From IMG/VR virus record IMGVR_UViG_3300007735_000758, positions 1 to 56,915 of that record: a stretch of 56,915 nucleotides of DNA; one strand, written 5' to 3'. Made by a program: the position numbers and the translations under genes. Below the pieces are notes generated by a model. It was given only the letters and a program-made list of their open reading frames with translations. It ran no database searches and was not told the origin of the DNA. The stretch comes from a virus. Lineage: Duplodnaviria; Caudoviricetes. Positions 8,150 to 31,276 of the stretch are shown here, piece by piece. Within the stretch, counting starts at the first letter, position 1. The number at the start of each line of letters is the position of its first letter.

Positions 8150-8344
8150 TCAGTCTCCATCATCTTCTTGCACCATTTGTTTCCATGTTTCTAGAAACTC
8201 TTGGCGCATTTGCTGGAGTCCAGCGAGTTTGCCAACCATCATCTTGTACTCTGCGTAGTCAGCGCAGGAGCCAGAGACGAGATGGGTGGTAATCGTCTCT
8301 GAAAGTTCGTCTACTCGATGGAAAAACTTAGACTTCAGGTCCAA
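8150..8344 (-). CDS. Small protein between portal and GroES
   Basis: TTG start at 8344 with GGGAGGG SD; DYAEYKMMVGKLAGL. Confidence 0.6.
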   Translation of the reverse strand: MDLKSKFFHRVDELSETITTHLVSGSCADYAEYKMMVGKLAGLQQMRQEFLETWKQMVQEDDGD

Positions 8345-11197: not shown

Positions 11198-12739
11198 TTA
11201 GTAGTAATCTGCTTTGGCGCGAACAACGTATTCTTCTTCGTCGTCGTTCTGTGTGGAAATAAAACCACCTTGCCTAAACCTCAACAAAGCCTGCGTTGAG
11301 CTATCAACAAGGTCATCATGATCTGAATTAGGAAACGATGCAAACTGCTCTATCACCTCTTCTGCCCAGCGCAATGGAGGCGCATAGACAAAGCCAGAGG
11401 CAAATATGTCGCTTACAGCGTTCACGCGAACTATCTTATCATTTCCTCTAGATGGAGTGTAATCCTGTACCGGGATGCCCATCTTCCTCAACTCGAAGAC
11501 AAGAGGAGCGCCAGCAGCCTTTGCTTCGATAATGCAGGCATCTGGCTTCCAATACTTGTATTCCTCTAGGGCTTTTTGCTTGAGTTCGGGGAACTCAAGT
11601 TTATCTTGATAAGCATTGAGTAGGATGATGTTTGCCCTTTGCTTGCCGTCTGAATCTCTGTCGTAAAACACTCCCCATGTAGTACAGGCGCTGTAGTCTG
11701 ACCGAGTTCCCTTGGTAAGCGCCGTGTCCCAGGACTGGATAATGTACTCGCACTTGGGGGGATCGTCTTTATCCCAGATCTTCCACCACTCTCTCTTTAC
11801 CAGCGCCCCCTCTTCCGAGGTAGGATTTTGCTGGTACTGAGCATTCCACTTGGCAACAGGCAATTCTGCCTTGATCTTTTCCAGTTCTTCTAAAGGCCAA
11901 AACTCAGGCCACAGAGGATTACCGGAAGGCATGATTGCCGGGAACTCAATCACTTCCCATTCATCTGCACCGTCTCTTTCCGATGCGGCCTTCAAGATCT
12001 GCCCACAGAGGTCTTTTTTAGACCACCTCGTCATAACGAGAATAATTGCGCCTCCAGGTTGCAAACGCTGACGAGGGCCAGACGTATACCACTCGTATAC
12101 GCTATCGTAAACACCTGGGCTTGTTGCTGCTATAGCAGCCTCTTGTTCGCTATGTGGGTCGTCTATAATCAGAAGGTCCGACCCTTTGCCCGTCACACTA
12201 CCACCAACACCTATTGCAAAGTATTCGCCCTGCTTATTTGTGTTCCACCTGCCAGCAGCCTTGCTATCTGAAGACAAAGAGACTCCAGAGAAAATTGATT
12301 GATATTGTTGACTACCTACTAGGTTCCTGACCTTTCTGCCAAACCCAACTGCTAATTCAGCAGTATGTGCTGTTTGAATTACTTTTTTGTGTGGGTATTT
12401 ACCAAGGAACCACGCTGGAAGCAAATAAGAGCTAAACTCGCTTTTTGTGTGACGAGGAGCCATGTTAATTATCAATCTTTTGCATTTACCTTCTGCTACT
12501 CGCTCAAAGGCATCTGCCATGATTGCATGGTGCCGACCAGGAATAAACGCAGGCCACATCTCTTTTACAAAGTCTAAGAACTTGTTCTGGCAGGTTTGCA
12601 CCTTGAGGTACTTCTCGTATTTCGTTAAAAGCTCTGCCAGTTCAAGCTGCTCGTGGTATGGCAGCGTCTTTGCTTTTGCGATGATTGTGTCAATCTGCTG
12701 AGGAGTGTATTCCCCGGCGAGGACATTCCTTATATTCAC
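11198..12739 (-). CDS. terL: Terminase large subunit
   Basis: Walker A-like APRHTKS, Walker B LLIIDDP, MTRW, nuclease QSWDTA and HDDLVDS. Confidence 0.95.
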   Translation of the reverse strand: MNIRNVLAGEYTPQQIDTIIAKAKTLPYHEQLELAELLTKYEKYLKVQTCQNKFLDFVKEMWPAFIPGRHHAIMADAFERVAEGKCKRLIINMAPRHTKSEFSSYLLPAWFLGKYPHKKVIQTAHTAELAVGFGRKVRNLVGSQQYQSIFSGVSLSSDSKAAGRWNTNKQGEYFAIGVGGSVTGKGSDLLIIDDPHSEQEAAIAATSPGVYDSVYEWYTSGPRQRLQPGGAIILVMTRWSKKDLCGQILKAASERDGADEWEVIEFPAIMPSGNPLWPEFWPLEELEKIKAELPVAKWNAQYQQNPTSEEGALVKREWWKIWDKDDPPKCEYIIQSWDTALTKGTRSDYSACTTWGVFYDRDSDGKQRANIILLNAYQDKLEFPELKQKALEEYKYWKPDACIIEAKAAGAPLVFELRKMGIPVQDYTPSRGNDKIVRVNAVSDIFASGFVYAPPLRWAEEVIEQFASFPNSDHDDLVDSSTQALLRFRQGGFISTQNDDEEEYVVRAKADYY

Positions 12740-13735: not shown

Positions 13736-14020
13736 GAATGTGCCGAAAGGTTCTCAGGCAGACGTTATGGTGGCTGCATCACCACTGAGATAGCCATGGA
13801 TTCAAGAAAGCACTGGTGAGACGACAATAATTTTCCATAGGGCCGCAGTTCAAAGAGCGGTACTGAGTTCTGGTAGCCACCCACTATCGGCATTCACCTA
13901 GAGAATCAATGCTTACGCTCTAGGTCAAAGAGATGACGGGCCAGGGACATTGGGATGCCTTGGTCCAGCTTGGAAACCGAAGGAAAAGGATCAGACCCGA
14001 GATATTGCATATACCTTCCT

Positions 14021-14130
14021 TCTTATCTATATTTTAGATGCAATTCTATAATGTATAGATAAGAGTATATTATCTTAGATATTCTATAGATTATATACAA
14101 AGCCTACGCGCTGGATCTGTATATGGTATA
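14021..14130. other. AT-rich segment with an 11-bp inverted repeat (candidate replication origin)
   Basis: TCTTATCTATA (14021-14031) / TATAGATAAGA (14054-14064) in a strongly AT-rich intergenic tract. Confidence 0.4.
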
Positions 14131-19368: not shown

Positions 19369-19628
19369 ACGAAGAACAACCGAAACATCACTCCAGCAAA
19401 AACCGTAAGGCATGGTGCAAAGGAGTAGAAGGCAGACACCACCAAACTACCCTCGCGCCAGCAAAGTACTGCACAGAAGAAATTAAAACCCTCGTAGAAC
19501 TCTGCACAAAATGCGGCAAACACATCAACTACTTCTGGAAACCATACCTCCTCTCCCCTCGCTCCAATAGAGAATGGCAAATATGGGACGAAGCATGGAC
19601 CCGATACAGAGAACAACGTAAGCTCTAG
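19338..19628 (+). CDS. Hypothetical Zn-binding protein (start approximate)
   Basis: KAWCKGVEGRHH...C...CTKCGKH. Confidence 0.55.
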   Translation, partial: RPYMDTKYSIDEEQPKHHSSKNRKAWCKGVEGRHHQTTLAPAKYCTEEIKTLVELCTKCGKHINYFWKPYLLSPRSNREWQIWDEAWTRYREQRKL

Positions 19629-19657
19629 CAGAGCCTAAATCTAAATACACACTCCGC

Positions 19658-19689
19658 AAAGGCTGGATAAACACCAGCCTTTTTTATTT
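19658..19689 (+). terminator. Intrinsic terminator ending the plus-strand block
   Basis: AAAGGCTGG-ATAAACA-CCAGCCTTT followed by a T-run. Confidence 0.8.
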
Positions 19690-19741
19690 GCCGCAGTGTA
19701 AATAAATATATCTGGGCGCAAGCAGGGGACCCAAATGGTAA

Positions 19742-19890
19742 GGGGGGGGGTCGGTTGGAGCAGGTGGAAGAAGGTGGGAGGGGATGGGGGAAATAAGGGG
19801 GGGGTAAATGTGTGGAATCGGATGTGTGGAGTACTATGCATACACACACCACCGCACCTCCCCTACTCCCCCTCCCCCACCCCCGTGGGG
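19742..19890. other. G-tract then C-tract segment at the 3' end of terS (candidate packaging/genome-end signal)
   Basis: G9 at 19742, G8 at 19797 and several other G runs, followed by C runs at 19857-19884. Confidence 0.35.
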
Positions 19891-20480
19891 GCCTCCGCTA
19901 CCGCCTCCAGCATCAAGCCACCAGGGCTAACATCACCATCCATGTTAGTAACATCAGAGTAAGTGGTAGTAAGTGAGTTAGCGCCATGCGTCTCCATGTT
20001 ACCAAGTAACATAGTTAGTTTGGCTCGCAACACATCGCCGAGTGACTTATTCAACTCAGCATTACTCTCGTTTGATGATGGCTCTTCGAAGATACTCGCG
20101 TATCTTGTTTTACCTACAAGCTCTAGTGCTTTCAGCCTGGTTATGTCTGAATCGGTGTTAGTTGCGGTATTAGTGAGGCCGTCCATGACGAACTTACGGA
20201 GCCTGGTCTTATCCTCCCACCAACTTGCCATTCTCTCCGCCTCCATTGCTTGTATCGCTACCGCAACATTAGGCTTCTTACTAACCTTCACCGATTGCAC
20301 TCTACCAGCGTTTGCGTTCCCATTCCACTTATACGCTTGCCTGTAGGCTTCCGCCTTACTAAGCCCTCCAAACACCAACCCCTCTGCAAACTTTCTCTGT
20401 TTCGGCGTTAACTTGCCTACTATCTCCTCTAGCGTGAGTTTCTTTCCATCCTGATAAACCCTAGTTACTTTGTTACTCAT
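19863..20480 (-). CDS. terS: Terminase small subunit
   Basis: LTPKQRKFAEGL...AEAYRQAY HTH, KPNV..AI and RLKALELVGK. Confidence 0.8.
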   Translation of the reverse strand: MSNKVTRVYQDGKKLTLEEIVGKLTPKQRKFAEGLVFGGLSKAEAYRQAYKWNGNANAGRVQSVKVSKKPNVAVAIQAMEAERMASWWEDKTRLRKFVMDGLTNTATNTDSDITRLKALELVGKTRYASIFEEPSSNESNAELNKSLGDVLRAKLTMLLGNMETHGANSLTTTYSDVTNMDGDVSPGGLMLEAVAEAPTGVGEGE

Positions 20481-20612
20481 GCGACTATATTAACACATAT
20501 TAATCTATCCTTTCGCATATAAGGAAACACGCGCGCGCGGTTTCCTTTAATCGCAAAAAAACACCAAACGAAAATTGCGGCGGCGGGCCCCACGAGCGCT
20601 ATTTCCGATAAG

Positions 20613-20706
20613 TCCTTTGTTTTCAACAAAACCCCCGAAATCTGGGACTTTTTTGGGAGAACATTAAAATCCCTCAATAATCGCTATCTCGTTGAAAACA
20701 AAAGGA
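20613..20706. repeat. Inverted repeat pair
   Basis: TCCTTTGTTTTCAAC (20613-20627) / GTTGAAAACAAAAGGA (20691-20706); perfect 12-bp core. Confidence 0.8.
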
Positions 20707-20760
20707 TTGGCCGGATGGACTTTCCTATAAACGGCGTGATTGAATAGTTGACAGTGGTGA

Positions 20761-21024
20761 CGCCGCCGCCTCAGGGCTGATAAACGTAAGCCGACCATCA
20801 CGAAATAGCCTGGAGAGACAACCAGGCGACAGCACGCCAAACGGACAGTTTGTGATGCTGACTGAGTCAGGAAAAACCTTGCAGCCGCTTTAGGGCAGAT
20901 AAACGTAAGACGAGGTTGTTCGATGTTGACGGTCAGCGGCATGGGCGGATGTTCCCCTATAACGTGCCGATGTGTCTTAGCATATAATCTCGCCGCCGCC
21001 TCAGGGCTGATAAACGTAAGCCGA
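20761..21024 (+). repeat. Module A, 34 nt x3 (20761-20794, 20880-20913, 20991-21024)
   Basis: CGCCGCCGCCTCAGGGCTGATAAACGTAAGCCGA; copies 1 and 3 are identical, copy 2 matches at 28/34. Confidence 0.95.
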
Positions 21025-21179
21025 GCTTACAAGCTAAGATTCTCTCAGCCAACTACCAGTTAACGGAGTAAGTCACTAGGTAGACGTTGATCGTATCCAA
21101 TAGGAAACCCTCACGCGCAAGTAACAACGTGACGTTAAAGCCATAGCCTATGGCTTGTTGAGCAATAAATGCACGCGTT

Positions 21180-21484
21180 GCCGAAATAACAGTAACCATA
21201 ACGGTGAATACATAGTAGGCGCATAAGCATAGCATTTAGCGGAGAAACACGCACCTACGGGAGCATCCGTCTAACGCATAATTGAACACTATAGGCACAC
21301 TGGTACTAACGTGTAAGTGATCCGGTCACTTACAGTCATATCATGTTGGCGCGTGGTAAAGGTAAGCGCCAAACAACGCAGAAGCGATAGCAAGTGGAGC
21401 GGGACAGGCGCGCTGATATATGGCACTCCGTCAGTAAATCAGAGCCGAAATAACAGTAACCCTAGCGGTGAATATACAGTAGGC
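21180..21484 (+). repeat. Module B, 41 nt x2 (21180-21220, 21444-21484)
   Basis: GCCGAAATAACAGTAACC-n5-GGTGAATAYAYAGTAGGC; 37/41 identical. Confidence 0.95.
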
Positions 21485-21670
21485 CAGAATTGAATAGGAA
21501 CTATATATTAGATTAAACGCGAATAAGTTAAGTAGCGAGATAGTAGAAAAAGCCAAATCTATAATGGGTCCGGTGCAAACTGGACCCATTTACCATTTAG
21601 CAACTAAATAAAGCCACATTCTGACAAGTGTGGCTCTATGTAGTTTCTAAACTACCAACAGGAGACAATT

Positions 21671-22348
21671 ATGACAACATACCACATCACGATGAAATCA
21701 CAGAACGGTAAAACCGGACCGATTCCGGTTACCACTACTAGTAAAGAAACTTGTTTCACTGGTTGCGGGCAGTATGAGAACTGCTACGCGAAACAGGGGC
21801 CTCTGGCGCTCCACTGGAACAAAGTCTCTGACGGGTCGCGCGGAATGACCCTGGCGCAGTTCTGCGCCGCTATCGAATCGCTTCCCGAGGGTACGCTCTG
21901 GAGACACAATCAAGCCGGGGATCTCCCCGGCGCTGATGGTAACATCGACCGCCGCGCATTGACAGATATCGTGATCGCCAACCTCAACAAACGTGGGTTC
22001 ACCTACACCCACAAGCCCATGACGCAGGAGAACGCCGGGATCGTGAAGAACGCTAACGCGCTTGGGTTCACCGTGAACTTGAGCGCCGATACCGTGGCGC
22101 AAGCTGACGAGTATGTATCGCTGGGCGTTGCTCCGGTAGTCCTCACAGTGCCGGAAGATACCCGCGCCAACTTCACCACTCCAGCGGGGAATAAAGTCGT
22201 AATCTGCCCCGCCGAAACCAAGGGCGTGACCTGCGCCGATTGCAAGCTTTGCGCGTGGTCGGGCCGGAAGGCTATCATCGCTTTCCCCGCTCACGGATCG
22301 AAGAAGAAGGCCGTCACCGCCGACAAGGTGTTTAACATCATCGCATAA
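21671..22348 (+). CDS. Gp88-like Cys-cluster phage protein
   Basis: NGKTGPIP, TCxxxCxxxxxCYA, RHNQAGDL, FTYTH and C-terminal CP....TCADCKLC; SD AGGAG. Confidence 0.65.
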   Translation: MTTYHITMKSQNGKTGPIPVTTTSKETCFTGCGQYENCYAKQGPLALHWNKVSDGSRGMTLAQFCAAIESLPEGTLWRHNQAGDLPGADGNIDRRALTDIVIANLNKRGFTYTHKPMTQENAGIVKNANALGFTVNLSADTVAQADEYVSLGVAPVVLTVPEDTRANFTTPAGNKVVICPAETKGVTCADCKLCAWSGRKAIIAFPAHGSKKKAVTADKVFNIIA

Positions 22349-22401
22349 GGGCTGACAACAGCCCCAAGTGGTATCAACAAAGGGTAGCTACGGCTACCCT
22401 T
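22349..22401 (+). promoter_or_regulatory. Tandem hairpins upstream of csx16
   Basis: GGGCTG-ACAA-CAGCCC and AAGGGTAGC-TACG-GCTACCCTT (cUNCGg loop); no U tract. Confidence 0.55.
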
Positions 22402-22433
22402 GATTGGTGACACTTCACCTATTGGAGAAAGTT

Positions 22434-22757
22434 ATGTATATCATCATTTCGCGGCACCCTGCCGCTATCGATTTCATCCGCGCCAACGATGCGCGGTTTT
22501 TGACGGCGCCCGTCATCACGGGCAACGCCACGCCCGAAGATGTTCGGGGCAAGGTGGTAGCGGGTAACATCCCGCTATCCCTCGCCGCACTAGCAGACGA
22601 GGTCGTCGCCGTGGAGTTCTCCGGCGCACCGCCTCGCGGCGCGGAGTACACCGCCGCCGACATGGTCGCCGCTGGTGCGCGTCTGGAAGCGTATGTGGTC
22701 AAGCGCAGTATTGCGTTTGACTACTGCGTCACGCACTCGCGAGCTGACGCATTTTAG
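22434..22757 (+). CDS. csx16: Csx16 (Cas_VVA1548)-family protein; candidate cA4 ring nuclease / anti-type III CRISPR
   Basis: ISRHPAAIDF...VVAGNIPLSLAA...RGAEYTAADMVAAGARLEAYVV matches the recalled Csx16 pattern SRHPGA...VIGTLP.HLAA...RG.EL...GARL..Y.V; SD GGAG. Confidence 0.75.
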   Translation: MYIIISRHPAAIDFIRANDARFLTAPVITGNATPEDVRGKVVAGNIPLSLAALADEVVAVEFSGAPPRGAEYTAADMVAAGARLEAYVVKRSIAFDYCVTHSRADAF

Positions 22758-23694: not shown

Positions 23695-23782
23695 CGTACT
23701 GACCAAGCACATTCTATGAGTGTGCTTGGATGAGTACACTGTACTCTGTCCAAATTTGGACAAACCAACTAGGAGAAAACCT

Positions 23783-24346
23783 ATGCTTACAAAGTTAAGC
23801 CTGATGATCCAAAAGATCGTATCGAAGGAAGCGTCCCGCTTCACCCTGAACGGGATCTTAATTACCAATAAAGAGACAGTGGCAACGGACAGCCACCGTC
23901 TAACACGGGTCAAGCACCTGTTCGTACAGGACAAGATGGACCGTCACGTAGTCCTGAAGGCGACAGATGCCATCTCGCTGTCTAAGATGGCAGGGAAGGA
24001 ACCCATCGAGGTTATGGGGGCCACTGCCGCAGACATATCCTTCCGCACCAGGGCGAGTAATACTACCTTCGAGCCGCTGGAAGGTAGCTTCCCGGATTAC
24101 CTGCGGGTTATCCCGTCTAAGACGGAAGACCATATCTGTATCATCTTCAACCCCAAGATGATGCAGGGTCTCATGGAGATCCACGGCGCTGCGGATGATT
24201 GCGTGCGGATGTATGTTCACCCGCGCAATCCCAACAACAACGCCATCATCCTCGAATCTGCGCGGGAAGATGGGCAGGACGTGCAGTCTCTCTTGATGCC
24301 CGTGCGAGACGCTGATGGGTACAAAGCCAGGAGGTACAGTGTCTAA
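23783..24346 (+). CDS. DNA polymerase III beta-clamp-like protein (partial clamp)
   Basis: SRFTLNGI, VATDSHRL, EGSFPDYLRVIP, FNPKMM, LLMPVR. Confidence 0.75.
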   Translation: MLTKLSLMIQKIVSKEASRFTLNGILITNKETVATDSHRLTRVKHLFVQDKMDRHVVLKATDAISLSKMAGKEPIEVMGATAADISFRTRASNTTFEPLEGSFPDYLRVIPSKTEDHICIIFNPKMMQGLMEIHGAADDCVRMYVHPRNPNNNAIILESAREDGQDVQSLLMPVRDADGYKARRYSV

Positions 24347-24358
24347 ATTTGGACACTT

Positions 24359-24742
24359 ATGAACACAAAAAAACTTACTTCGCATATCCTCTCGCTGCTA
24401 CTGCAACACACAATAGCAGTGACATGGAAAGATGGGACGAGTGGACGCGCCTGGGTAAAAACTAGGCGCGTTCGCTTGCGTCCTGTCAAGACACAGAAGA
24501 CCTACGCTGTTGCTCTTCACGAGATCGGTCACATCGTAGGCGACCAACCCAAGGCACGGCTAGACCGTGAAGCTGCGGCCTGGGAGTGGGCTATGCGTAA
24601 CGCTCTGAAGTGGACGCGCATAACCCATGCCACAATGCAACGCTGCCTCCAGTCTTATATGGATGCAGCCCAGCGCAAGCGGTACAAACCTTCGCCCCGT
24701 GCGAGCCGCTTGCTAGTGTCCAAATTTGGACAGGAGGATTAG
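24359..24742 (+). CDS. Small HExxH zincin-like metallopeptidase
   Basis: ALHEIGHIV...REAAAWEWA. Confidence 0.7.
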   Translation: MNTKKLTSHILSLLLQHTIAVTWKDGTSGRAWVKTRRVRLRPVKTQKTYAVALHEIGHIVGDQPKARLDREAAAWEWAMRNALKWTRITHATMQRCLQSYMDAAQRKRYKPSPRASRLLVSKFGQED

Positions 24743-24745
24743 TAC

Positions 24746-25018
24746 ATGACCCTACCAACCATCCATCTTAACGGCACGGACCCCCGTGACCTGCTGCAAG
24801 ACGTTCTGGACGCTTTAACAGCGATCAGAGAAGCCATCCGGGCGCTGGATAAAACAGCGCCCAACGGGCGAGACTACTACCCCCAGGGCGGCGATGCCCT
24901 GGGGCTGGCCTTCGGAGAGTATCTCCTACGGAGAGATAGCCTGTGCAATGTTCTGAAAGAACTTGAGCAGATTGCCGAATACTTGAGCGACAAAGCAGTA
25001 CAGCTCAATCGCCTTTAA
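24746..25018 (+). CDS. Hypothetical phage protein
   Basis: PTIHLNGT...PNGRDYYPQG; SD GGAGG. Confidence 0.8.
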   Translation: MTLPTIHLNGTDPRDLLQDVLDALTAIREAIRALDKTAPNGRDYYPQGGDALGLAFGEYLLRRDSLCNVLKELEQIAEYLSDKAVQLNRL

Positions 25019-25057
25019 CTAACCAACAAGTGTCCAAATTTGGACAAAGGAGAACAT

Positions 25058-25309
25058 ATGCTTACGCCAGAATTAATATACGAAGCCATGAGACATGGCT
25101 ATAGCTGGGGAATGTGCGAGGCCGACCTCGATCTTGAGCAAGGTAGATGGCGAGAGTGGGTGAACGGCAACTATTGCGGGTGGTTGCCCAAGGATGACGC
25201 CGAGCGCACAGCTTACGAAGACCTATTAGACCGCTGTGCAAAGACGGCGTACGAGATGATGCGCGATGCCTTCAAGGCCAACCAGGAGGCAAAGTGCGCT
25301 ACGCTTTGA
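25058..25309 (+). CDS. Hypothetical protein
   Basis: SD AAGGAG directly after a palindrome copy. Confidence 0.7.
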   Translation: MLTPELIYEAMRHGYSWGMCEADLDLEQGRWREWVNGNYCGWLPKDDAERTAYEDLLDRCAKTAYEMMRDAFKANQEAKCATL

Positions 25310-25497
25310 TGTCCCGGTCTAACGAAGGCGATGAATGGAATGACGCAGGGTACGCAAGTACCCTAAGCCAACTGAAAGAGTTGGCGCAGTGCTGGATCAT
25401 GCAGTACATGGCAGTAGACATGGAGAGAGGTCTGGTAGCAGACCTCAACGTAACTCCTCGATCCTGCACCCTTGCAAGCAAGTGGAGGAAAGCATGA
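25294..25497 (+). CDS. Hypothetical protein
   Basis: GTG start with SD AGGAGG. Confidence 0.55.
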   Translation: MRYALMSRSNEGDEWNDAGYASTLSQLKELAQCWIMQYMAVDMERGLVADLNVTPRSCTLASKWRKA

Positions 25498-25667
25498 GCC
25501 ACACAAGGCGGGAAGGCCCCCGCTGCTACAACCCTGCCTTAGTCCGCCTACCTGACGGTACCTACGGCACCTTCCCGTTCGGTCATCCTATGCCGGAAGG
25601 CGCTGTCGTTATCGAGCGCCGGAGTACAACAGGATGGCGCAAGGTGCGAGAGTGTGAGTATGCGTGA
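25494..25667 (+). CDS. Hypothetical protein (57 aa)
   Basis: SD GGAGG; ATGA overlap. Confidence 0.6.
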   Translation: MSHTRREGPRCYNPALVRLPDGTYGTFPFGHPMPEGAVVIERRSTTGWRKVRECEYA

Positions 25668-25767
25668 GCGTATAAACCAAATCCTCGACACCGTTACACA
25701 CTTCTGCTTCGCGTATTTGCCGTACATCGTAATCCTGGGTGCGGCATTCTATTTCTTCAGCCGATAG
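25660..25767 (+). CDS. 35-aa single-TM microprotein
   Basis: MRERINQILDTVTHFCFAYLPYIVILGAAFYFFSR; stop codon abuts the palindrome at 25768. Confidence 0.5.
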   Translation: MRERINQILDTVTHFCFAYLPYIVILGAAFYFFSR

Positions 25768-25792
25768 TGTCCAAATTTGGACAGGAGATACT

Positions 25793-26107
25793 ATGCAAGA
25801 TTTCACATTAGGAACGTGCCAAGCCATGACCTTTGAGGAGTGGGCGCTCAGCCAACTGCTCATGATATGCAGACCCGATGGGTACCTCGATCAGACCAAG
25901 GATGGGATTCATTCCACCTACCTCGTCGAGAAAGTTCGCGCCCTAGTACTGGCGCTGGACCACGGCGACGAACTCCAGTACCGACTGGATGTTGCCCAGC
26001 TTGACCAAGACGAGCAGGAGATCCGGCACCTGCTCGAAGTTATGAGGTCGCGAGATCTCGATGGCGCAGGCTTCTCGCCGTACGTTGGAGGGCAAACGAT
26101 CCAATGA
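25793..26107 (+). CDS. Hypothetical protein
   Basis: SD AGGAG overlapping the palindrome end. Confidence 0.7.
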   Translation: MQDFTLGTCQAMTFEEWALSQLLMICRPDGYLDQTKDGIHSTYLVEKVRALVLALDHGDELQYRLDVAQLDQDEQEIRHLLEVMRSRDLDGAGFSPYVGGQTIQ

Positions 26108-26202
26108 CAGTTAAAGAAATCATCGAACTTATTCTCATCGCACCACTGCTCGTGGGAATGTACTTCATTGCGTGGAGGGCGTGGAGGAATCTAGATCTAT
26201 GA
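26104..26202 (+). CDS. 32-aa single-TM microprotein
   Basis: ATGA overlap; MTVKEIIELILIAPLLVGMYFIAWRAWRNLDL. Confidence 0.55.
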   Translation: MTVKEIIELILIAPLLVGMYFIAWRAWRNLDL

Positions 26203-26324
26203 AGATTCTCAAGCTCATCGACGAGCTAAACGAAGCAATCATAGACGTTGTTGGCATGATCCTGTCAGGCGTGGCTGCGCTAGTATTATGCGCCATCATC
26301 TACTGGATCATTTCGCTACTGTAA
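26199..26324 (+). CDS. 41-aa single-TM microprotein
   Basis: ATGA overlap, SD GGAGG; hydrophobic C-terminal half. Confidence 0.6.
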   Translation: MKILKLIDELNEAIIDVVGMILSGVAALVLCAIIYWIISLL

Positions 26325-26331
26325 AACACTA

Positions 26332-26377
26332 TAGGGCAAGTACTGCACTGCACTTGCCCTAAACCATTTGATAGAAT
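26332..26377 (+). promoter_or_regulatory. Extended -10 promoter with overlapping 10-bp inverted repeat
   Basis: TAGGGCAAGT/ACTTGCCCTA; TG-A-TAGAAT at 26369-26377. Confidence 0.5.
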
Positions 26378-26409
26378 AAAGAAGTGCTGCCCAGCACAAC
26401 AGGAGCTAT

Positions 26410-27438
26410 ATGTTTTCAACAGAACTCGTCAAGGCGATTCAGATCGCCATCAATGCCCGTGTCCCGATGTGGCTTTGGGGACAGACCGGAGTCGGCAAGT
26501 CCTCCATTTGGAGGCAGGTCGCGCAGTCCCTTTGCAGGACGCACATCGACGTGCGCCCTACTCAGATGGACCCAGTAGACATGGGCATCCCGTACATCAA
26601 GGATGGCATCTGCTACCGTGCCATTCCCAACTGGTTGCCGAAGGATGGCAGCGCGTTGATGGTCATCGAGGAGCTGCCGGATGCACCCCCATCTGTACAG
26701 TGCGCTCTGTACCAGCTTGTCTTAGAGCGTGAGCTTGGAGACTACAAAGTACCTGACGGCGCGTACATCTGCGCTACAGGCAACCGCGCCCAGGACGGTG
26801 GCAACTACAACCAACCTCCTGTCCCTCTTCTCAATCGGTTCCTGCACATTACCTTGGAGTCTGGCTACGATAGCTGGCACGAGTGGGCAGCTAAGGGCAG
26901 CAGCGCCATGAAGGTGGACGTCATCCCGCCCAAGCCTATCTCCCCCAACATTCGGCCTGAGATCCGGGGCTTCTTCTCTTTCCGTAAAGATCTTCTGGTG
27001 CAACAGCCAAACAAGAGTGAGTTTGCATTCTGTACCCCCCGTTCTGTCGAGATGCTGTCTCGCATCATGGATCAAGAACCCAGCGCCGATGTCGCTGCGG
27101 AGCTGGTACACGGCTGTATCGGTAGAGGTACAGGCACAGAGTTCCTGGGCTTCCTCCGCACCTACAGGTCGCTGCCTACGTTGTCTGCTATCCAGGCAGA
27201 TCCTATGAACGTCCCGGTGCCTACTGACCCAAGCAGTTCGTACGCAACATCCATCTATCTGTCCAACTCGTGGGCAGCAAAGTACTCGCACTCTATCTGC
27301 TCGTACATGACCCGTCTCTCGCCCGAATACGGTTGCCTCTTCCTTAAAGATCTTTGCACCAAGGATCAAACGGCAATCGCTCACCCCAGCGTTCTGGCTA
27401 TGCACAACAAGCCCGAATACAACAACCTGATGTTCTAA
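26410..27438 (+). CDS. MoxR-like AAA+ ATPase
   Basis: Walker A GQTGVGKS, Walker B MVIEE, ATGNR, PLLNRF, TPRS. Confidence 0.9.
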   Translation: MFSTELVKAIQIAINARVPMWLWGQTGVGKSSIWRQVAQSLCRTHIDVRPTQMDPVDMGIPYIKDGICYRAIPNWLPKDGSALMVIEELPDAPPSVQCALYQLVLERELGDYKVPDGAYICATGNRAQDGGNYNQPPVPLLNRFLHITLESGYDSWHEWAAKGSSAMKVDVIPPKPISPNIRPEIRGFFSFRKDLLVQQPNKSEFAFCTPRSVEMLSRIMDQEPSADVAAELVHGCIGRGTGTEFLGFLRTYRSLPTLSAIQADPMNVPVPTDPSSSYATSIYLSNSWAAKYSHSICSYMTRLSPEYGCLFLKDLCTKDQTAIAHPSVLAMHNKPEYNNLMF

Positions 27439-27462
27439 CCCCCAACCTAAGGAGATAATTCT

Positions 27463-28356
27463 ATGTCTATTCTTTCTGAGAAAGCGATCCTCGTCCGGTT
27501 CTCTGTCGCGCAATGGACGGCGCGGAAGTTCGACAAGAAGGCCACTGCCGAGGTCGAACAGAATCACGGCGCAAACGCCAACGCTGGGGAGGTAGGCCGC
27601 TTCAACAAGCAGCTTGCCAGCAAGCGGTATATGACGGAATTGTCCAGCAACATCTCGCTGGCACGGGCGTGGCACTACGAGCAGACGCTCCCTTGGCATG
27701 ATGCCGAGGGCGTCCGCATCCTCCCTGTCGCCAACTTCAACAAGTACCAGGAGGAGATGTCCAAATTTAGACAGAAGCACGAGGAGGCTCTCAATACTTT
27801 CGTCAAGCAGTACCCGGACGTAATCAACGAGGCCAAGTATCGTCTCAACGGTTTGTTCAATCAGGATGACTTCCCGCCTGTCGAGTCCATCCGTAGCAAG
27901 TTCTCGTGGGAGATCAGCTTCTCCCCGGTGCCTGAGTCTGGAGACTTCCGAGTTGCTTTAGGCAAGGATGTGATGAAGCAGATGGAGCAGGATTTACAGA
28001 AGCGTTTGTCACACAACTACAACTCCGCTTGCGTCGATCTCTTCGAGAGGGTCCAGCAACAGTGCCAGCATATGCACGAGAGGCTGACGGGGTACACGGG
28101 AGAACGTGCTGGGGCCTTCCGCGATTCTCTTGTAGAGAACATCCGGGAGCTTGCCTCTCTTCTTCCCCGGCTGAATGTCGGCGGCGATGAGCGGCTCGAT
28201 AGCATCGCTCGTCGCATCGACGAAGAGTTGTGCCAATACGATGCCGACTACCTGCGGGAGAACGACTCGACCCGCAAGGATGTCGCCACCCAGGCCAAGG
28301 TACTTGGCGACGAGGCCGAAGAGATCATCAACCAGATGAAGGGGATGTTTGCGTAA
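27463..28356 (+). CDS. DUF3150-like alpha-helical protein
   Basis: W.ARK.DK...TLPW...G.RILP...FRDSLVENI; lies between MoxR and vWA genes. Confidence 0.7.
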   Translation: MSILSEKAILVRFSVAQWTARKFDKKATAEVEQNHGANANAGEVGRFNKQLASKRYMTELSSNISLARAWHYEQTLPWHDAEGVRILPVANFNKYQEEMSKFRQKHEEALNTFVKQYPDVINEAKYRLNGLFNQDDFPPVESIRSKFSWEISFSPVPESGDFRVALGKDVMKQMEQDLQKRLSHNYNSACVDLFERVQQQCQHMHERLTGYTGERAGAFRDSLVENIRELASLLPRLNVGGDERLDSIARRIDEELCQYDADYLRENDSTRKDVATQAKVLGDEAEEIINQMKGMFA

Positions 28357-29537
28357 TGTCGGAAGCCTCAAAACGTATCGTACAAACGACCGTCCAGATG
28401 GCAATCGGGGGCGAGATCTTCTTCGGAAGTCTCGCTCTCCGGTACGATTGGCAGGCTGACAAAGCCTGCCCTACCATGGCGACAGACGGCAGACGGTTCT
28501 ATTACAATCCTGACTTTGTCCTATCCATTACTCAGGAAGAACTCAAAGCGGTCATCATCCACGAGATCATGCACGTTGCTCTCATGCATCCGTTGCGTAT
28601 CAAAAGCCACGACCATCGCAAAGCAAACATCGCGATGGACTTCGCTATCAATATCTTGATACGAGATTGTGGGTACAAGCTACCGTCTATGGCGCTGCTG
28701 GATAATCGGTACACAGGCATGGCATGGGAGCAGATCTACAAGCTGCTCCCTCAGCAGCAGAAGCAGAACCAACCTAGCAACGGTCAAGGACAAGGGCAGG
28801 GTCAACCCAGCCAGGACCAAAGCCAAGGCCAAGGCCAGCAGCAGCGTGACTACAGCAACGGCGATGTCTTGAGTGCTGGTGGTACAGCAGAGGAACGTGC
28901 TGACCTGGAGCAGCAGATCATGACGACCGTAGCGCAGGCCGAACAGACTGCGCGAGTAGCAGGCAAGATGCCGGGAGCTTTGCGGGATCTTCTCGTACAA
29001 GTGCGTGAGCCAGAAGAGGATTACCGTTATCTCTTCCAGAAGTTTATGGCACCCATCTTCCCGGTAGACTACACATGGCAGCGCCCGTCCCGGCGTTTCA
29101 TGGGTCAGGGTATGTATATGCCTTCACTCTTGAAAGATGGCGTAGGCAAGCTGGTAGTCGGGCTGGACACATCTGCTTCTGTATCTAAAGCAGAACTAGA
29201 GATGTTCCTGGGGCTGATCAATCACTTCCTCACCAAGGTCAAGCCTGAGAAAACACACCTGTTGTACTGCGATACTACCGTGTACAAGCACGAGATGTTC
29301 AAGCCAGGACAACCGATGGATGTCAGCGAGTTCCAAGCACAGCGTGGCGGCACTCGCTTCCGTCCAGTGTTCGATTATTCCAGCGAACACGACCTCAAAC
29401 CTAAAGCGTTTGTCTACTTAACCGACATGGAATGCGACGACTTCGGGCCTGATCCAGGCGTTCCGGTGTTGTGGTTCCAGGTCGGCAACTACAAGAGCCG
29501 CCCTCCCTTTGGGGAGGTCATCCGGCTTAAGAGCTAG
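28356..29537 (+). CDS. Metallopeptidase-vWA protein (DUF2201-like)
   Basis: ATDG...YNPDF, HEIMH, N.AMD..IN; MIDAS-like DTSAS, GGTRF.PVF, LTD. Confidence 0.88.
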   Translation: MSEASKRIVQTTVQMAIGGEIFFGSLALRYDWQADKACPTMATDGRRFYYNPDFVLSITQEELKAVIIHEIMHVALMHPLRIKSHDHRKANIAMDFAINILIRDCGYKLPSMALLDNRYTGMAWEQIYKLLPQQQKQNQPSNGQGQGQGQPSQDQSQGQGQQQRDYSNGDVLSAGGTAEERADLEQQIMTTVAQAEQTARVAGKMPGALRDLLVQVREPEEDYRYLFQKFMAPIFPVDYTWQRPSRRFMGQGMYMPSLLKDGVGKLVVGLDTSASVSKAELEMFLGLINHFLTKVKPEKTHLLYCDTTVYKHEMFKPGQPMDVSEFQAQRGGTRFRPVFDYSSEHDLKPKAFVYLTDMECDDFGPDPGVPVLWFQVGNYKSRPPFGEVIRLKS

Positions 29538-31276
29538 GGCAACTCGTAGTAGGTACTCGTGGGGATGTCGTACTTCAATCGCGTCATCCCCTGCTTACCT
29601 ACCCATTTGAATCTACACTTCCAGCTATGGATCTCGACGTATCCATCTGCATCTTTCCGATGCACGGTTAGCCCACAGTCAGTCTTATTGAACCAGTGTG
29701 CGCTACCTGAGATGTCATACCCTCCAGGGACGGGATTCCCTCCCATCGTCTGCATCTTCTGCGGATGCGCCACGAACCAAACATGAATGTTCGATGCCTT
29801 AGCGAAGGCACTGATCTTCGATAGCATCGCGGAGACTGCGTCTGTTTCGCTCTGCTTATCCCCTCTGTGCAGGTCTAGACAGTTGTAAGGGTCAATGACT
29901 AGGCCGTCTATCCCGTAGCGCATAACGGCTGCGTGAGCGCGATCTAGCAGACTATCTACCGTAGGCAGATCCCTGCTGGTAGCGAAGTCGATAAAGGTGA
30001 AGTGCTTCTTGCACCAATCAACAGCGTCCTTTGCTTCCTGCATGGACATGGACCCAGGCCACTGCGAGAAGAAGGGTTTCTTCAGGTGCATCTCCGAGAG
30101 CTTGGCGATGTGCTTCGATGGCTCGTTCTCCATGGATGCTATCGCAAACTTCCACCCAACCTGATGCGCCAGATTCACCATGATCATGTCGAGGAAGTTC
30201 GACTTACCGGATGACGGCACGCCCGTGACTACGGTCATCTGTCCTCGCGCCACGGTATACAGTTGATCTACGCCGACAAACCCTGTACTCTCTCCTCTAC
30301 CGTCACCTTTGGTGAACAGTTCCATGACCTGATCGAAGTAATGGTCAGCAGTGTAGAGGGAGGTAAGAGGGATGGGCTTTGCTTCGTCAAGAACTTTAGC
30401 TAGAACTTCTTTCCCGTGCTGCATGAGGACATCGTTAGCGTCCTTACACCCCTTCGGGTACGTTACCGTCATGCACTTGCTGCGAGACAAGCGACGAGCG
30501 ATCTCTTCGGCAAGCTGCTTGCCGGGAGTATCGGAGTCTACACACAGAACGAACTGTCTAAATTTGGACAGGAACTCTTCGAGTTCAGCGATCCACGAGA
30601 AGCGCAGACTGTTGCCTTCTTCTTTCTTCGCTGGCGCACCAGCAGGAACGGACACCCAATTCGGATGCCCTGCTTCCGCAACAGATAAAGCATCCATCTC
30701 TCCTTCGCAAATGATGAGAGGCCTGGATGTGTCAAATGTCTGGTGCAGACCGAATAACAAACCTCCTGCCCCCTGATCCTGGCTAAAGGCTTTGGTGATT
30801 GTACTCCGGTACTTGCTGGAGGCGATCTCGCCATCCATATCGTAGAAGGGGAAGGCAATACAGTCTTGCTCTCCTCCCGTACGGAAGAACTTCCTGGCGC
30901 TGTACAGCTTGCCTAGATTCGCAGTCTCCTGCGAGATCCCTCGCTTAGACAAGTACTCCAGATGTGCCGCTTGCAAGCGCACAGGCTCAGCAGGACGCGC
31001 CGGAATCTCTTCAGGTACTTTCACTACCGGGATCGGTGCTGCAAAGTATTCTTCCAAGTCATTTAAATTCAAACAGTCTTCCTCCTCTCGCGCGACACCA
31101 GATGCGTTGCAGTGATGGCAGTAGTAGACGGGGCCAGCATCTCCATGCGACCACGCTAAGATGCGGATCTTGGAGTTCGCTCCTCGCCTAGTGTGACTGC
31201 ACTCCGGGCAAAGAGAACGCCACGACCCACGGCCACTACGCAGGAACTGCGCTGCAAGATCCTCGAATGTTGGCAC
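29534..31276 (-). CDS. Primase-helicase (T7 gp4/Twinkle-like)
   Basis: Zn finger CPEC...CHHC, TOPRIM ICEGEMDALS and DSD, KDAND; SF4 helicase GVPSSGKS, VIDPYN, VAHP, ISGSAHW. Confidence 0.93.
   Translation of the reverse strand: MPTFEDLAAQFLRSGRGSWRSLCPECSHTRRGANSKIRILAWSHGDAGPVYYCHHCNASGVAREEEDCLNLNDLEEYFAAPIPVVKVPEEIPARPAEPVRLQAAHLEYLSKRGISQETANLGKLYSARKFFRTGGEQDCIAFPFYDMDGEIASSKYRSTITKAFSQDQGAGGLLFGLHQTFDTSRPLIICEGEMDALSVAEAGHPNWVSVPAGAPAKKEEGNSLRFSWIAELEEFLSKFRQFVLCVDSDTPGKQLAEEIARRLSRSKCMTVTYPKGCKDANDVLMQHGKEVLAKVLDEAKPIPLTSLYTADHYFDQVMELFTKGDGRGESTGFVGVDQLYTVARGQMTVVTGVPSSGKSNFLDMIMVNLAHQVGWKFAIASMENEPSKHIAKLSEMHLKKPFFSQWPGSMSMQEAKDAVDWCKKHFTFIDFATSRDLPTVDSLLDRAHAAVMRYGIDGLVIDPYNCLDLHRGDKQSETDAVSAMLSKISAFAKASNIHVWFVAHPQKMQTMGGNPVPGGYDISGSAHWFNKTDCGLTVHRKDADGYVEIHSWKCRFKWVGKQGMTRLKYDIPTSTYYELP

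What the first reader, a model, noticed from the sequence alone, without database searches (positions are those of the whole stretch)
20710..21660. ~950-nt ORF-free, hairpin-dense leader built from repeated modules: candidate decoy/sponge ncRNA
Seen: no credible ORF in an otherwise compact genome; module order C-A-A-C-A-B-B. Many stems lie between modules, e.g. GCCTGG/CCAGGC, AAGCCATA/TATGGCTT, TGTAAGTGA/TCACTTACA (21312-21334), TTGGCGC/GCGCCAA, a 12-bp stem with GCAA loop (21563-21590) and AGCCACA/TGTGGCT. Conserved cores sit within different closing stems, the signature of RNA-level selection. Established: phages use RNA counter-defence (pseudo-ToxI repeats against ToxIN; Racr RNA anti-CRISPRs). 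Inference: an immediately transcribed multi-module RNA that titrates host defence proteins or signalling nucleotides before phage proteins are made.
Basis: partly seen in the sequence, partly recalled or inferred. Interest (0 to 1): 0.88.

Follow-up and report, generated by a model that had tools for sequence, protein, structure and literature searches.

The report
Structured non-coding early leader in phage
An uncultured freshwater phage carries about 1 kb of non-coding DNA ahead of its first early gene, built from repeated hairpin modules and probably made as a structured RNA; what that RNA does is still unknown.

Summary
The window is a complete 56.9-kb phage genome. Positions 20481-21670 are an 1190-nt gap between a lone small-terminase-like gene (minus strand) and the rightward early/replication operon. 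No reading frame in the gap is kept in relatives.

What holds up:
- Module A (3 copies) and module B (2 copies) are real and occur nowhere else in the genome. Module C is marginal.
- The 29-nt A cores sit inside closing helices of unrelated sequence: 77% of cells paired against 56% in shuffles, and 6 of 8 pairs changed on both sides.
- A 12-bp hairpin (21563-21590) and a roughly 22-bp hairpin (21596-21651) just before the first gene are replaced by other or compensated stems in two relatives, with G-U pairs that fit the plus strand.
- A promoter-like site (20653-20681) lies upstream of all modules.

What does not:
- Rfam gives nothing, even at E up to 10.
- The element exists only in one close lineage; more distant relatives have gaps of about 210-400 nt.
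- Transcription is not shown, and near-identity of the core could be recent recombination.

Best reading (about 0.35): an early structured leader RNA, cut free, that binds a protein at several sites. The defence-decoy idea is neither supported nor excluded.

The parts
19863..20480 (-). Small-terminase-like gene (205 aa), divergent from the leader; the only TerS candidate found in the genome
   Evidence: phrog_51 E 3e-9. Pfam Terminase_2 is below cut-off. All 8 distant relatives of this family (30-42% identical) that were scanned have a large-terminase gene after them; L061's own copy scores Terminase_2 2.3e-13, L029's own copy matched no family.
20653..20681 (+). Sigma-70-like promoter candidate (TTGGGA, 17-nt spacer, AATAAT) upstream of all modules; predicted start near 20688
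   Evidence: 9 of 12 matches; the number of sites in the region is at chance level. Identical site in L002 and L005. L003 and L004 have strong sites with the same orientation at the matching place. Flanked by a perfect 12-nt inverted repeat, 20616-20627 / 20691-20702.
20754..20801 (+). Module A1: 29-nt conserved core (20763-20791) inside the closing helix GTGGTG/CATCAC
20808..20827 (.). Hairpin GCCTGG-AGAGACAA-CCAGGC, identical in the window, L002 and L005 while its flanks differ
   Evidence: Flagged as terminator-like on the minus strand.
20875..20917 (+). Module A2: core 20882-20910 inside the 7-bp helix AACCTTG/CGAGGTT. The matching copy in L002 and L005 has a different helix.
20985..21029 (+). 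Module A3: core 20993-21021 inside TAATCTCG/CGAGCTTA (7 of 8 pairs). The block of about 20925-21040 is absent from L002 and L005.
21155..21560 (+). Conserved core, 97-100% identical to L002, L005 and L006. Holds B1 (21180-21220), hairpins 21312-21334 and 21346-21372, B2 (21444-21484) and an A+T-rich tail (21450-21570, GC 0.33-0.35).
   Evidence: Natural variants show the 5-nt centre of B1 is variable while its flanks are invariant. Short metatranscriptome contigs lie at 21232-21404, 21261-21411 and 21401-21540.
21563..21590 (+). Hairpin T1: 12 bp with a GCAA loop, then a T-rich tail up to about 21600; terminator-like or a 3'-end protecting hairpin
   Evidence: L002 and L005 have different stems at the same place, flagged there as terminator-like on the strand that equals the window's plus strand. 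G-U pairs fit the plus strand in 2 of 3 variants.
21596..21651 (+). Long imperfect hairpin of about 22 bp (inner stem 21612-21635 with a conserved 6-nt loop), ending 9 nt before the ribosome-binding site. Candidate double-strand RNase processing site.
   Evidence: 3 pairs changed on both sides among 3 sequences, and a U-G pair kept in all 3.
21660..22348 (+). Ribosome-binding site (21660-21664) and first early gene (DUF7227, start codon at 21671)

Best explanation
The stretch from about 20688 to 21655 is a lineage-specific, non-coding 5' leader of the rightward early operon. I think the host RNA polymerase transcribes it from the site at 20653-20681.

The RNA is a chain of hairpin modules. Three A modules each present the same 29-nt loop, closed by helices of unrelated sequence. 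A 400-nt core follows, with two B modules and several perfect hairpins.

The RNA ends in a stable 12-bp hairpin (21563-21590). A roughly 22-bp hairpin (21596-21651) follows, just before the ribosome-binding site of the first gene.

Most likely mechanism, which is inferred and not shown: the long hairpin is cut by a double-strand-specific RNase (RNase III-like), or transcription partly stops at the 12-bp hairpin. This releases a stable leader RNA of about 0.9 kb. Its repeated identical loops then bind several copies of one protein, from the host or the phage, early in infection.

Shown here: non-coding status, the repeats, helices kept by compensatory change, and the position between a promoter-like site and the first gene.

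Inferred: transcription, strand, processing, the binding partner, and action in trans.

Rough odds:
- Structured plus-strand RNA of some function: 0.55.
- The specific released, multi-site protein-binding RNA described here: 0.35.
For: - Non-coding: frames are not kept in relatives; tblastx gave one chance-level hit, E 0.5; the 58-aa ORF has no protein relative.
- A and B repeats are unique to this gap, with 0 matches in any of 100 shuffles.
- Closing helix around the A core, 6 copies: 77.1% of cells paired against 55.7 +/- 5.4% in shuffles (1 of 500 as high). 6 of 8 pairs changed on both sides. Covariation score 0.558 against 0.21 (0 of 500). Slid controls give 25-47% paired.
- Flank-energy test for the same helix: per copy p = 0.008-0.13; combined p about 4e-4.
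- The inner hairpin of the A core carries UCCG or UACG loops on the plus strand in L002 and L005.
- T1 is replaced by unrelated stems in L002 and L005 and is flagged there as terminator-like on the matching strand.
- The long hairpin has 3 pairs changed on both sides and one U-G pair kept in all 3 sequences.
- Plus-strand folding of the T1 and long-hairpin segment is more stable than minus-strand folding in 2 of 3 sequences.
- Promoter-like site upstream of all modules. Strong sites with the same orientation in L003 and L004.
- A>T skew through 20520-21750 matches the sense strand of plus-strand genes.
- The element is accessory. Relatives have gaps of about 210-400 nt (L003, L004, L010, L013, L023). 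A copy number differs, 3 against 2.
- The core is held in part by runs of 12 studies.
- 3 of 3 metatranscriptome runs laid have a contig inside 21232-21540 and none elsewhere in the gap. This is weak, because the runs were chosen with this sequence.
Against: - No direct evidence of transcription, of strand, or of any binding partner.
- The RNA-run contigs are single fragments from runs selected with this sequence, and could be DNA carry-over.
- The promoter is only 9 of 12, and the number of promoter-like sites in the region equals chance: 2 found against 2.1 expected.
- Folding z-scores are modest and no better on the plus strand: -2.6 and -0.3, against -3.4 and -2.05 on the minus strand.
- In the A helices, two A-C mismatches (L002 copies) would be G-U pairs on the minus strand, so the strand signal there is mixed.
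- A minus-strand promoter-like site (21317 to 21288) and minus-strand terminator-like sites also exist.
- T1 in the window has a poor T tract and was not flagged by the scan.
- Near-identity of the core is not proof of constraint. The same pairwise profile shows 97-100% blocks in coding DNA (19400-19800), so recent recombination could explain it.
- Only 3 independent DNA sequences, plus 5 translated variants, are available. The core has almost no variation with which to test pairing.
- I derived the A helix from these same sequences. L002 A2 and L005 A2 share their arms, so overstates independence.
Confidence: 0.35

Rival explanations
1. Cis-acting regulatory leader only. The RNA is transcribed as above but works on its own transcript. 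T1 would be an attenuator that must be read through to express the early operon. The repeated modules would be antitermination, anti-Rho or processing signals (nut- or put-like in logic), and the long hairpin would set the 5' end and stability of the first mRNA.
For: - No promoter-like site conserved in the relatives lies between T1 and the start codon, so the operon must depend on read-through. A relaxed scan finds one 9/12 site whose -10 is at 21560-21565, overlapping T1's 5' arm, but it is lost in L002 and L005.
- T1 is terminator-like in L002 and L005.
- A second conserved terminator-like hairpin follows the first gene (22366-22415).
- Relatives with short leaders also carry one or two hairpins just before the first ribosome-binding site.
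Against: - Three dispersed copies of one loop lie 550-850 nt upstream of the terminator, and their number varies between relatives. That is unusual for cis signals.
- Relatives manage with leaders of about 130-150 nt.
- No candidate antiterminator protein was identified.
- No Rfam match.
Confidence: 0.2
2. DNA-level element. The repeats would be binding sites on double-stranded DNA, for example recognition sites for the neighbouring small terminase (a pac region), operators for a phage regulator, or part of a replication origin.
For: - The gap adjoins the only TerS-like gene.
- Other lineages have short direct repeats next to this gene (L018, L024).
- The centre of B is an imperfect inverted repeat with a variable 5-nt spacer and invariant flanks, as in dimer-binding operators.
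- 21450-21570 is A+T-rich, GC 0.33-0.35.
- The gap lies just upstream of the replication genes.
Against: - The A cores are flanked by helices that change sequence but keep pairing. A plain duplex binding site does not need that.
- Spacings of 111-119 and 264 nt are unlike iterons.
- The modules lie 270-1000 nt from terS, on the far side of the early promoter.
- A much more A+T-rich stretch with inverted repeats lies elsewhere (14000-14099, GC 0.22) and is the better origin candidate.
- Relatives with the same terS lack these modules.
Confidence: 0.2
3. No specific function. The gap would be a patchwork of duplications, deletions and recombination joints between mosaic phages. It would look conserved only because the lineages share recent ancestry, and its hairpins would be incidental.
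For: - The pairwise identity profile is mosaic, with near-100% blocks in coding DNA too.
- Blocks 20925-21040 and 21053-21150 come and go between relatives.
- The left half folds no better than shuffles on the plus strand.
Against: - Helices are kept through changes on both sides.
- A and B cores are kept while their surroundings diverge.
- About 1 kb of non-coding DNA is maintained in an otherwise tightly packed genome.
- The core is present in runs of 12 studies.
Confidence: 0.15

Closest known systems
Phage T7 early leader with its RNase III site ahead of gene 0.3 (recalled textbook knowledge; no paper on it was read here, and one search found only a review listing)
   Same: A non-coding stretch downstream of host-polymerase early promoters, ended by a long irregular hairpin just before the first early gene.
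   Different: In T7 the tandem elements are promoters. Here the A modules have no promoter consensus. They are conserved loops in variable stems, and the leader is longer. Cutting by RNase III is not tested.
RNA anti-CRISPRs (Racr, solitary repeat units); PMC10651486, passages read
   Same: Small hairpin units in phage intergenic DNA, often next to anti-CRISPR genes. A Csx16-like gene lies about 0.7-1.4 kb downstream here.
   Different: Racrs are defined by a match to a known CRISPR repeat and usually sit right behind a promoter. No CRISPR-repeat family matched even at E up to 10. None of 120 genome loci holding the A core had a second copy. The A copies lie 111-119 nt apart inside one long leader.
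ToxI and pseudo-ToxI antitoxin RNA; PMC3475682, passages read
   Same: Phage-encoded repeated non-coding RNA units whose copy number changes between variants.
   Different: ToxI units are contiguous 36-nt repeats that resemble a host antitoxin. Here the repeats are dispersed among unique sequence, and there is no Rfam ToxI hit.
CsrB/RsmZ-type protein-titrating small RNAs (recalled)
   Same: Many hairpins showing the same loop motif, with variable copy number. This is the logic I propose.
   Different: Those loops carry GGA. GGA is not enriched here: 19 found against 20.9 expected. No Rfam hit.
Terminase recognition regions (lambda cosB, SPP1 pacL; recalled)
   Same: Repeated sites in non-coding DNA next to the small-terminase gene.
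   Different: Those are short duplex sites close to or inside the gene. Here the modules are hairpin-forming, far from the gene, and absent from relatives that carry the same gene.

Membership tests
Any Rfam family (GOLLD, ROOL, ToxI, riboswitches, CRISPR-DR and the rest) | Covariance-model match at the gathering score | tested here: not met
   0 matches in the whole window at gathering score. In 20400-21750 at E up to 10, the best match is a 27-bit sub-threshold hit of a small-RNA model on the T1 hairpin. 0 matches at E up to 10 for 20745-21035 and for 21150-21560.
Racr / solitary CRISPR repeat unit | Sequence and structure match to a known CRISPR repeat | tested here: not met
   No CRISPR-DR hit. 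The A-core pattern gave only single, chance-level matches in 120 genome loci. SRUFinder's repeat set was not available, and the host is unknown, so the test is partial.
Racr / solitary CRISPR repeat unit | Located immediately downstream of a promoter | tested here: not met
   A1 and A2 have no site of 8/12 or better directly upstream. A3 has a perfect -10 (20983-20988) with a poor -35 (3 of 6).
ToxI-type antitoxin RNA | Contiguous tandem repeats of about 36 nt | tested here: not met
   Start-to-start spacing is 119, 111 and 264 nt, with unique sequence between copies.
CsrA/RsmA sponge RNA | Enrichment of GGA motifs in hairpin loops | tested here: not met
   GGA 19 against 20.9 expected; ANGGA 5 against 4.9.
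Intrinsic terminator (for T1) | G+C-rich stem followed by a T tract on the transcribed strand | tested here: inconclusive
   Flagged in L002 and L005 (11-12 bp stems). Not flagged in the window, whose tail is ATTTACCATTT.
RNase III processing site (for 21596-21651) | About two turns of double-stranded RNA, cut in vitro or in vivo | not testable with these tools
   A helix of about 20-22 bp is predicted in all 3 sequences, with compensatory changes. Cutting is untested.
Replication origin with iterons | Closely spaced direct repeats beside an A+T-rich unwinding stretch | tested here: not met
   Repeat spacing is 111-264 nt. A+T enrichment is only moderate. A stronger candidate lies at 14000-14099.
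pac/cos terminase recognition region | Binding of small terminase and a packaging cut nearby | not testable with these tools
   Only adjacency to the TerS-like gene is shown. The 127-bp terminal repeat looks like an assembly overlap, so the physical ends are unknown.

The most novel reading that the evidence does not exclude
The leader is the first RNA made after DNA entry and acts as an RNA decoy. Its repeated A loops, and perhaps the B loops, would soak up a host defence component before any phage protein exists. That component could be an RNA-binding nuclease or a CRISPR-processing or effector protein of a host with a type III system, or a signalling nucleotide. The leader would work together with the Csx16-like ring-nuclease candidate encoded about 0.7 kb downstream.
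Probability: 0.12. Interest if true: 0.85.

Novelty: new variant of a known kind. Interest (0 to 1): 0.55.

Why it matters
Long structured non-coding RNAs of phages are few, and most have no known role.

This element has clear anatomy:
- identical loops held in covarying stems;
- a hyper-conserved 400-nt core;
- a terminator-like hairpin and then a processing-like hairpin;
- a position at the very start of the early transcript, beside a candidate anti-CRISPR ring nuclease.

If the RNA is released and binds a protein at several sites, it would add an RNA-based host-takeover or counter-defence device. It would differ from CRISPR-repeat mimics and from antitoxin mimics.

If it acts only in cis, it would be an unusually elaborate early-gene switch.

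Either way it is a defined, synthesisable test object from an uncultured freshwater phage lineage found in many water metagenomes.

Tried and rejected
- Coding region or decayed gene: rejected. Frames are not kept, tblastx gave nothing significant, and the 58-aa ORF has no protein relative.
- Known RNA family: rejected at the sensitivity of Rfam.
- Tandem promoter array as in T7: the A modules lack sigma-70 consensus.
- CsrA-type sponge: no GGA enrichment.
- CRISPR-repeat mimic: no support.
- Search for diverged copies:
  - blastn over 87 loci found the leader only in L002/L021 (one contig) and L005/L006.
  - nhmmer over the other 83 loci found none.
  - B-motif scans of viral contigs found only L002, then L002 plus two chance hits inside unrelated coding DNA (L089, L090).
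  - The first A-motif scan found nothing.
- A B-like short motif in the leader of L004 was seen by eye but is too short to count.
- Whole-region conservation as proof of selection: set aside because of the mosaic identity profile.
- A-loop complements elsewhere in the genome: only weak 3-mismatch hits.
- Gaps in cover of the RNA runs outside 21232-21540 are not evidence of absence.
- Host and physical genome ends could not be determined.
- Supplementary files of the papers were not opened. The SRU lists in the supplements of PMC10651486 might say whether this record was already called as an SRU carrier.

Full report
Setting.
The window is a complete virus record of 56,915 bp. Its 127-bp terminal repeat looks like an assembly overlap. 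Late genes read leftward: large terminase 11198-12739, portal 8328-10895, head, and tail fibre. So do two giant proteins, one with polyvalent-protein domains. A rightward block from 21671 holds:
- DUF7227 and a Csx16-like protein;
- a RusA-like resolvase, an ATPase and a primase-helicase;
- an exonuclease and an Erf-like protein.

No RNA polymerase gene was seen, so early transcription should use the host enzyme. There is no close relative among 50,697 GenBank phage records.

The finding lies in the 1190-nt gap 20481-21670. On its left is a lone leftward gene, 19863-20480. This gene is a small-terminase homologue. It matches phrog_51 at E 3e-9. All 8 distant relatives of the family (30-42% identical) that I scanned have a large-terminase gene after them, directly abutting in L061 and L044. 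L061's own copy scores Terminase_2 at 2.3e-13, while L029's own copy matched no family.

Observation.
- Non-coding. The gap has 12 ORFs of at least 30 aa, none credible. The longest (92 aa, minus strand) shares only its last 27 residues with the L002 version, and is split in L005. tblastx against 83 related loci gave one chance-level hit.
- Repeats. A (3 copies) and B (2 copies) are unique to the gap. C is marginal.
- Stems.
- Folding. Overall folding is only modestly better than shuffles, and no better on the plus strand than on the minus strand.

Relatives.
Using the TerS-like protein as an anchor, I fetched 3, then 16, then 68 loci.
- The leader is present only in the closest lineage: L002 (also fetched as L021) and L005/L006, with TerS 86-88% identical. 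nhmmer found nothing in the other 83 loci.
- Relatives at 45-65% identity have gaps of about 210-400 nt (L003, L004, L010, L013, L023).
- L003 and L004 have a strong rightward sigma-70-like site (11/12 and 10/12, both with TG) and a short leader.
- The 1-kb leader is therefore an accessory insertion behind the early promoter. In the window, the matching site (TTGGGA, 17-nt spacer, AATAAT; 20653-20681; 9/12) lies upstream of every module and is identical in L002 and L005.

Comparative anatomy.
- 20481-20750 is 96-100% identical in the relatives.
- A1 and A2 are kept, with changed flanks.
- The block holding C2 and A3 (about 20925-21040) is absent from L002 and L005.
- 21053-21150 is present in L005 but not in L002.
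- 21155-21560 is 97-100% identical. Coding DNA is less conserved in places: 82% for the DUF7227 gene in L002, and 64-88% in the middle of terS.
- The same profile has 97-100% blocks in coding DNA (19400-19800). Recent recombination can therefore mimic constraint, and I do not count core identity as decisive.

A modules.
With 8-nt arms in register (alignment A6), the helix that closes the 29-nt core scored as follows:
- 77.1% of cells paired, against 55.7 +/- 5.4% in shuffles (1 of 500 as high);
- 6 of 8 pairs changed on both sides;
- covariation score 0.558 against 0.21 (0 of 500);
- slid controls 25-47% paired.

Between the matching A2 copies of the window and L002, 4 of 7 pairs change on both sides (read). 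An energy test of the flanks against random genome places gave p = 0.008-0.13 per copy, combined about 4e-4. A stricter test counting only consecutive pairs was weaker.

Caveats: I derived the helix from these sequences, two rows share their arms, and the innermost CG/CG pair is part of the repeat itself. Inside the loop, a short G+C hairpin carries UCCG or UACG loops in L002 and L005, and UCAG in the window.

B modules and core.
Five translated natural variants of a spurious ORF over 21053-21235, together with the DNA of L002 and L005, show two things. The 5 nt at the centre of B1 vary: ATAAC, CTAAC, TTAGT, and, as inferred from the translated variant P0003, CTAGC. The flanks, which end in GGTGAATACATAGTAGGC, never vary. 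This fits either a small hairpin with a free loop or a two-half-site operator.

Right end.
- T1 (21563-21590; 12 bp, GCAA loop) is replaced by unrelated 11-12-bp stems in L002 and L005. There the scan calls them terminator-like on the strand equal to the window's plus strand.
- Two of the three T1 variants hold a G-U pair that would be an A-C mismatch on the other strand.
- 21596-21651 folds in all three sequences into a helix of about 20-22 bp. It has 3 pairs changed on both sides and a U-G pair kept in all three.
- That helix ends 9 nt before the ribosome-binding site.
- No promoter-like site conserved in the relatives lies between T1 and the start codon. A relaxed scan finds one 9/12 site whose -10 overlaps T1's 5' arm (21560-21565), but it is lost in L002 and L005.

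Expression hints.
Parts of the gap are held by runs of 12 studies, mostly water metagenomes. Each of the three metatranscriptome runs laid (two studies) holds one short contig inside 21232-21540. One run also holds a contig at 19238-19429. The runs were picked with this sequence, and contigs show neither strand nor level. I treat this as a weak hint only.

Interpretation.
The helices kept through sequence change, the plus-strand G-U pairs at the right end, the A>T skew shared with plus-strand genes, and the position behind the early promoter all favour a plus-strand structured RNA. I put that at about 0.55.

Several features fit a released, multi-site protein-binding RNA better than a purely cis signal. 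These are the repeated identical loops, their variable copy number, the accessory status of the element, and a stable 3' hairpin followed by a processing-like helix. I commit to the released-RNA reading at about 0.35. The rivals are:
- a cis-only leader, 0.2;
- a DNA-level element such as pac, operators or an origin, 0.2;
- no function, 0.15.

The next-but-one gene is Csx16-like: Pfam 34.8 bits against a cut-off of 25, and PADLOC 8.3e-8. Csx16 is reported as a cA4 ring nuclease, found in 2 of 28,114 phage genomes (bioRxiv 10.1101/2024.09.24.614671, passages read). This makes an anti-defence neighbourhood plausible, but nothing links it to the RNA.

Comparison with known systems.
- No Rfam family matches.
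- Racr, ToxI and Csr-type membership each fail a defining feature; the details are in the membership table.
- The nearest working analogy is the T7 early leader with its RNase III site. This is recalled knowledge; no paper on it was read here.

Noticed in passing
window 23748-30569 (23748, 24341, 24718, 25032, 25769, 27759, 30556); also L004, L005/L006, L019, L002: The 14-nt palindrome GTCYAAATTTRGAC occurs 7 times exactly. In 5 cases it sits 0-10 nt before the ribosome-binding site of a rightward gene. It is shared by relatives whose TerS is only 41-45% identical (L004, L019). L003-type relatives carry a different palindrome (TGTCTCACAGTGAGACA) in the same position. It looks like a family-wide gene-start operator or RNA hairpin that marks a 'middle' gene set. 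The first three or four early genes lack it.
   Followed up: partly
window 22404-22757 (+): The second early gene encodes a Csx16-like domain: Pfam PF09652 at 34.8 bits against a cut-off of 25; PADLOC Csx16 8.3e-8; NCBIfam below its cut-off. It is a candidate viral cA4 ring nuclease, that is, an anti-type III CRISPR protein.
   Followed up: partly
window 22366-22415: A long terminator-like hairpin between the DUF7227 gene and the Csx16-like gene. It is 86% identical in L004, although the proteins there are only about 45% identical. It overlaps the listed TTG start at 22404, so the true start is probably later.
   Followed up: no
window 20511-20558: A palindrome with an alternating CG core (GGAAAC-ACGCGCGCGCG-GTTTCC) lies 40-70 nt upstream of the terS-like start. 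Similar CG runs occur at the same place in L004 and L019. It could be a packaging or regulatory signal.
   Followed up: no
window 20481-20500 and the matching places in L003 and L004: The terS-like gene has no ribosome-binding site. A -10-like hexamer lies 6-7 nt before its start codon in all three phages, read by eye. This suggests a leaderless mRNA.
   Followed up: no
window 14000-14099: A very A+T-rich stretch (GC 0.22) with nested inverted repeats, at the divergence of the leftward late genes and the rightward genes. It is a better candidate for an origin or a bidirectional control region than the gap studied here.
   Followed up: partly
window 20616-20627 and 20691-20702: A perfect 12-nt inverted repeat (TTTGTTTTCAAC / GTTGAAAACAAA) brackets the predicted early promoter. 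Its right arm covers the predicted start site, so it may be an operator pair.
   Followed up: no
L005 1777-2340; L003 3187-3741; L004 3052-3654: Relatives have a first early gene of 184-200 aa that the window and L002 lack. L002 instead has a 71-aa ORF between the leader and the DUF7227 gene. The start of the early operon is therefore a hot spot of gene exchange.
   Followed up: no
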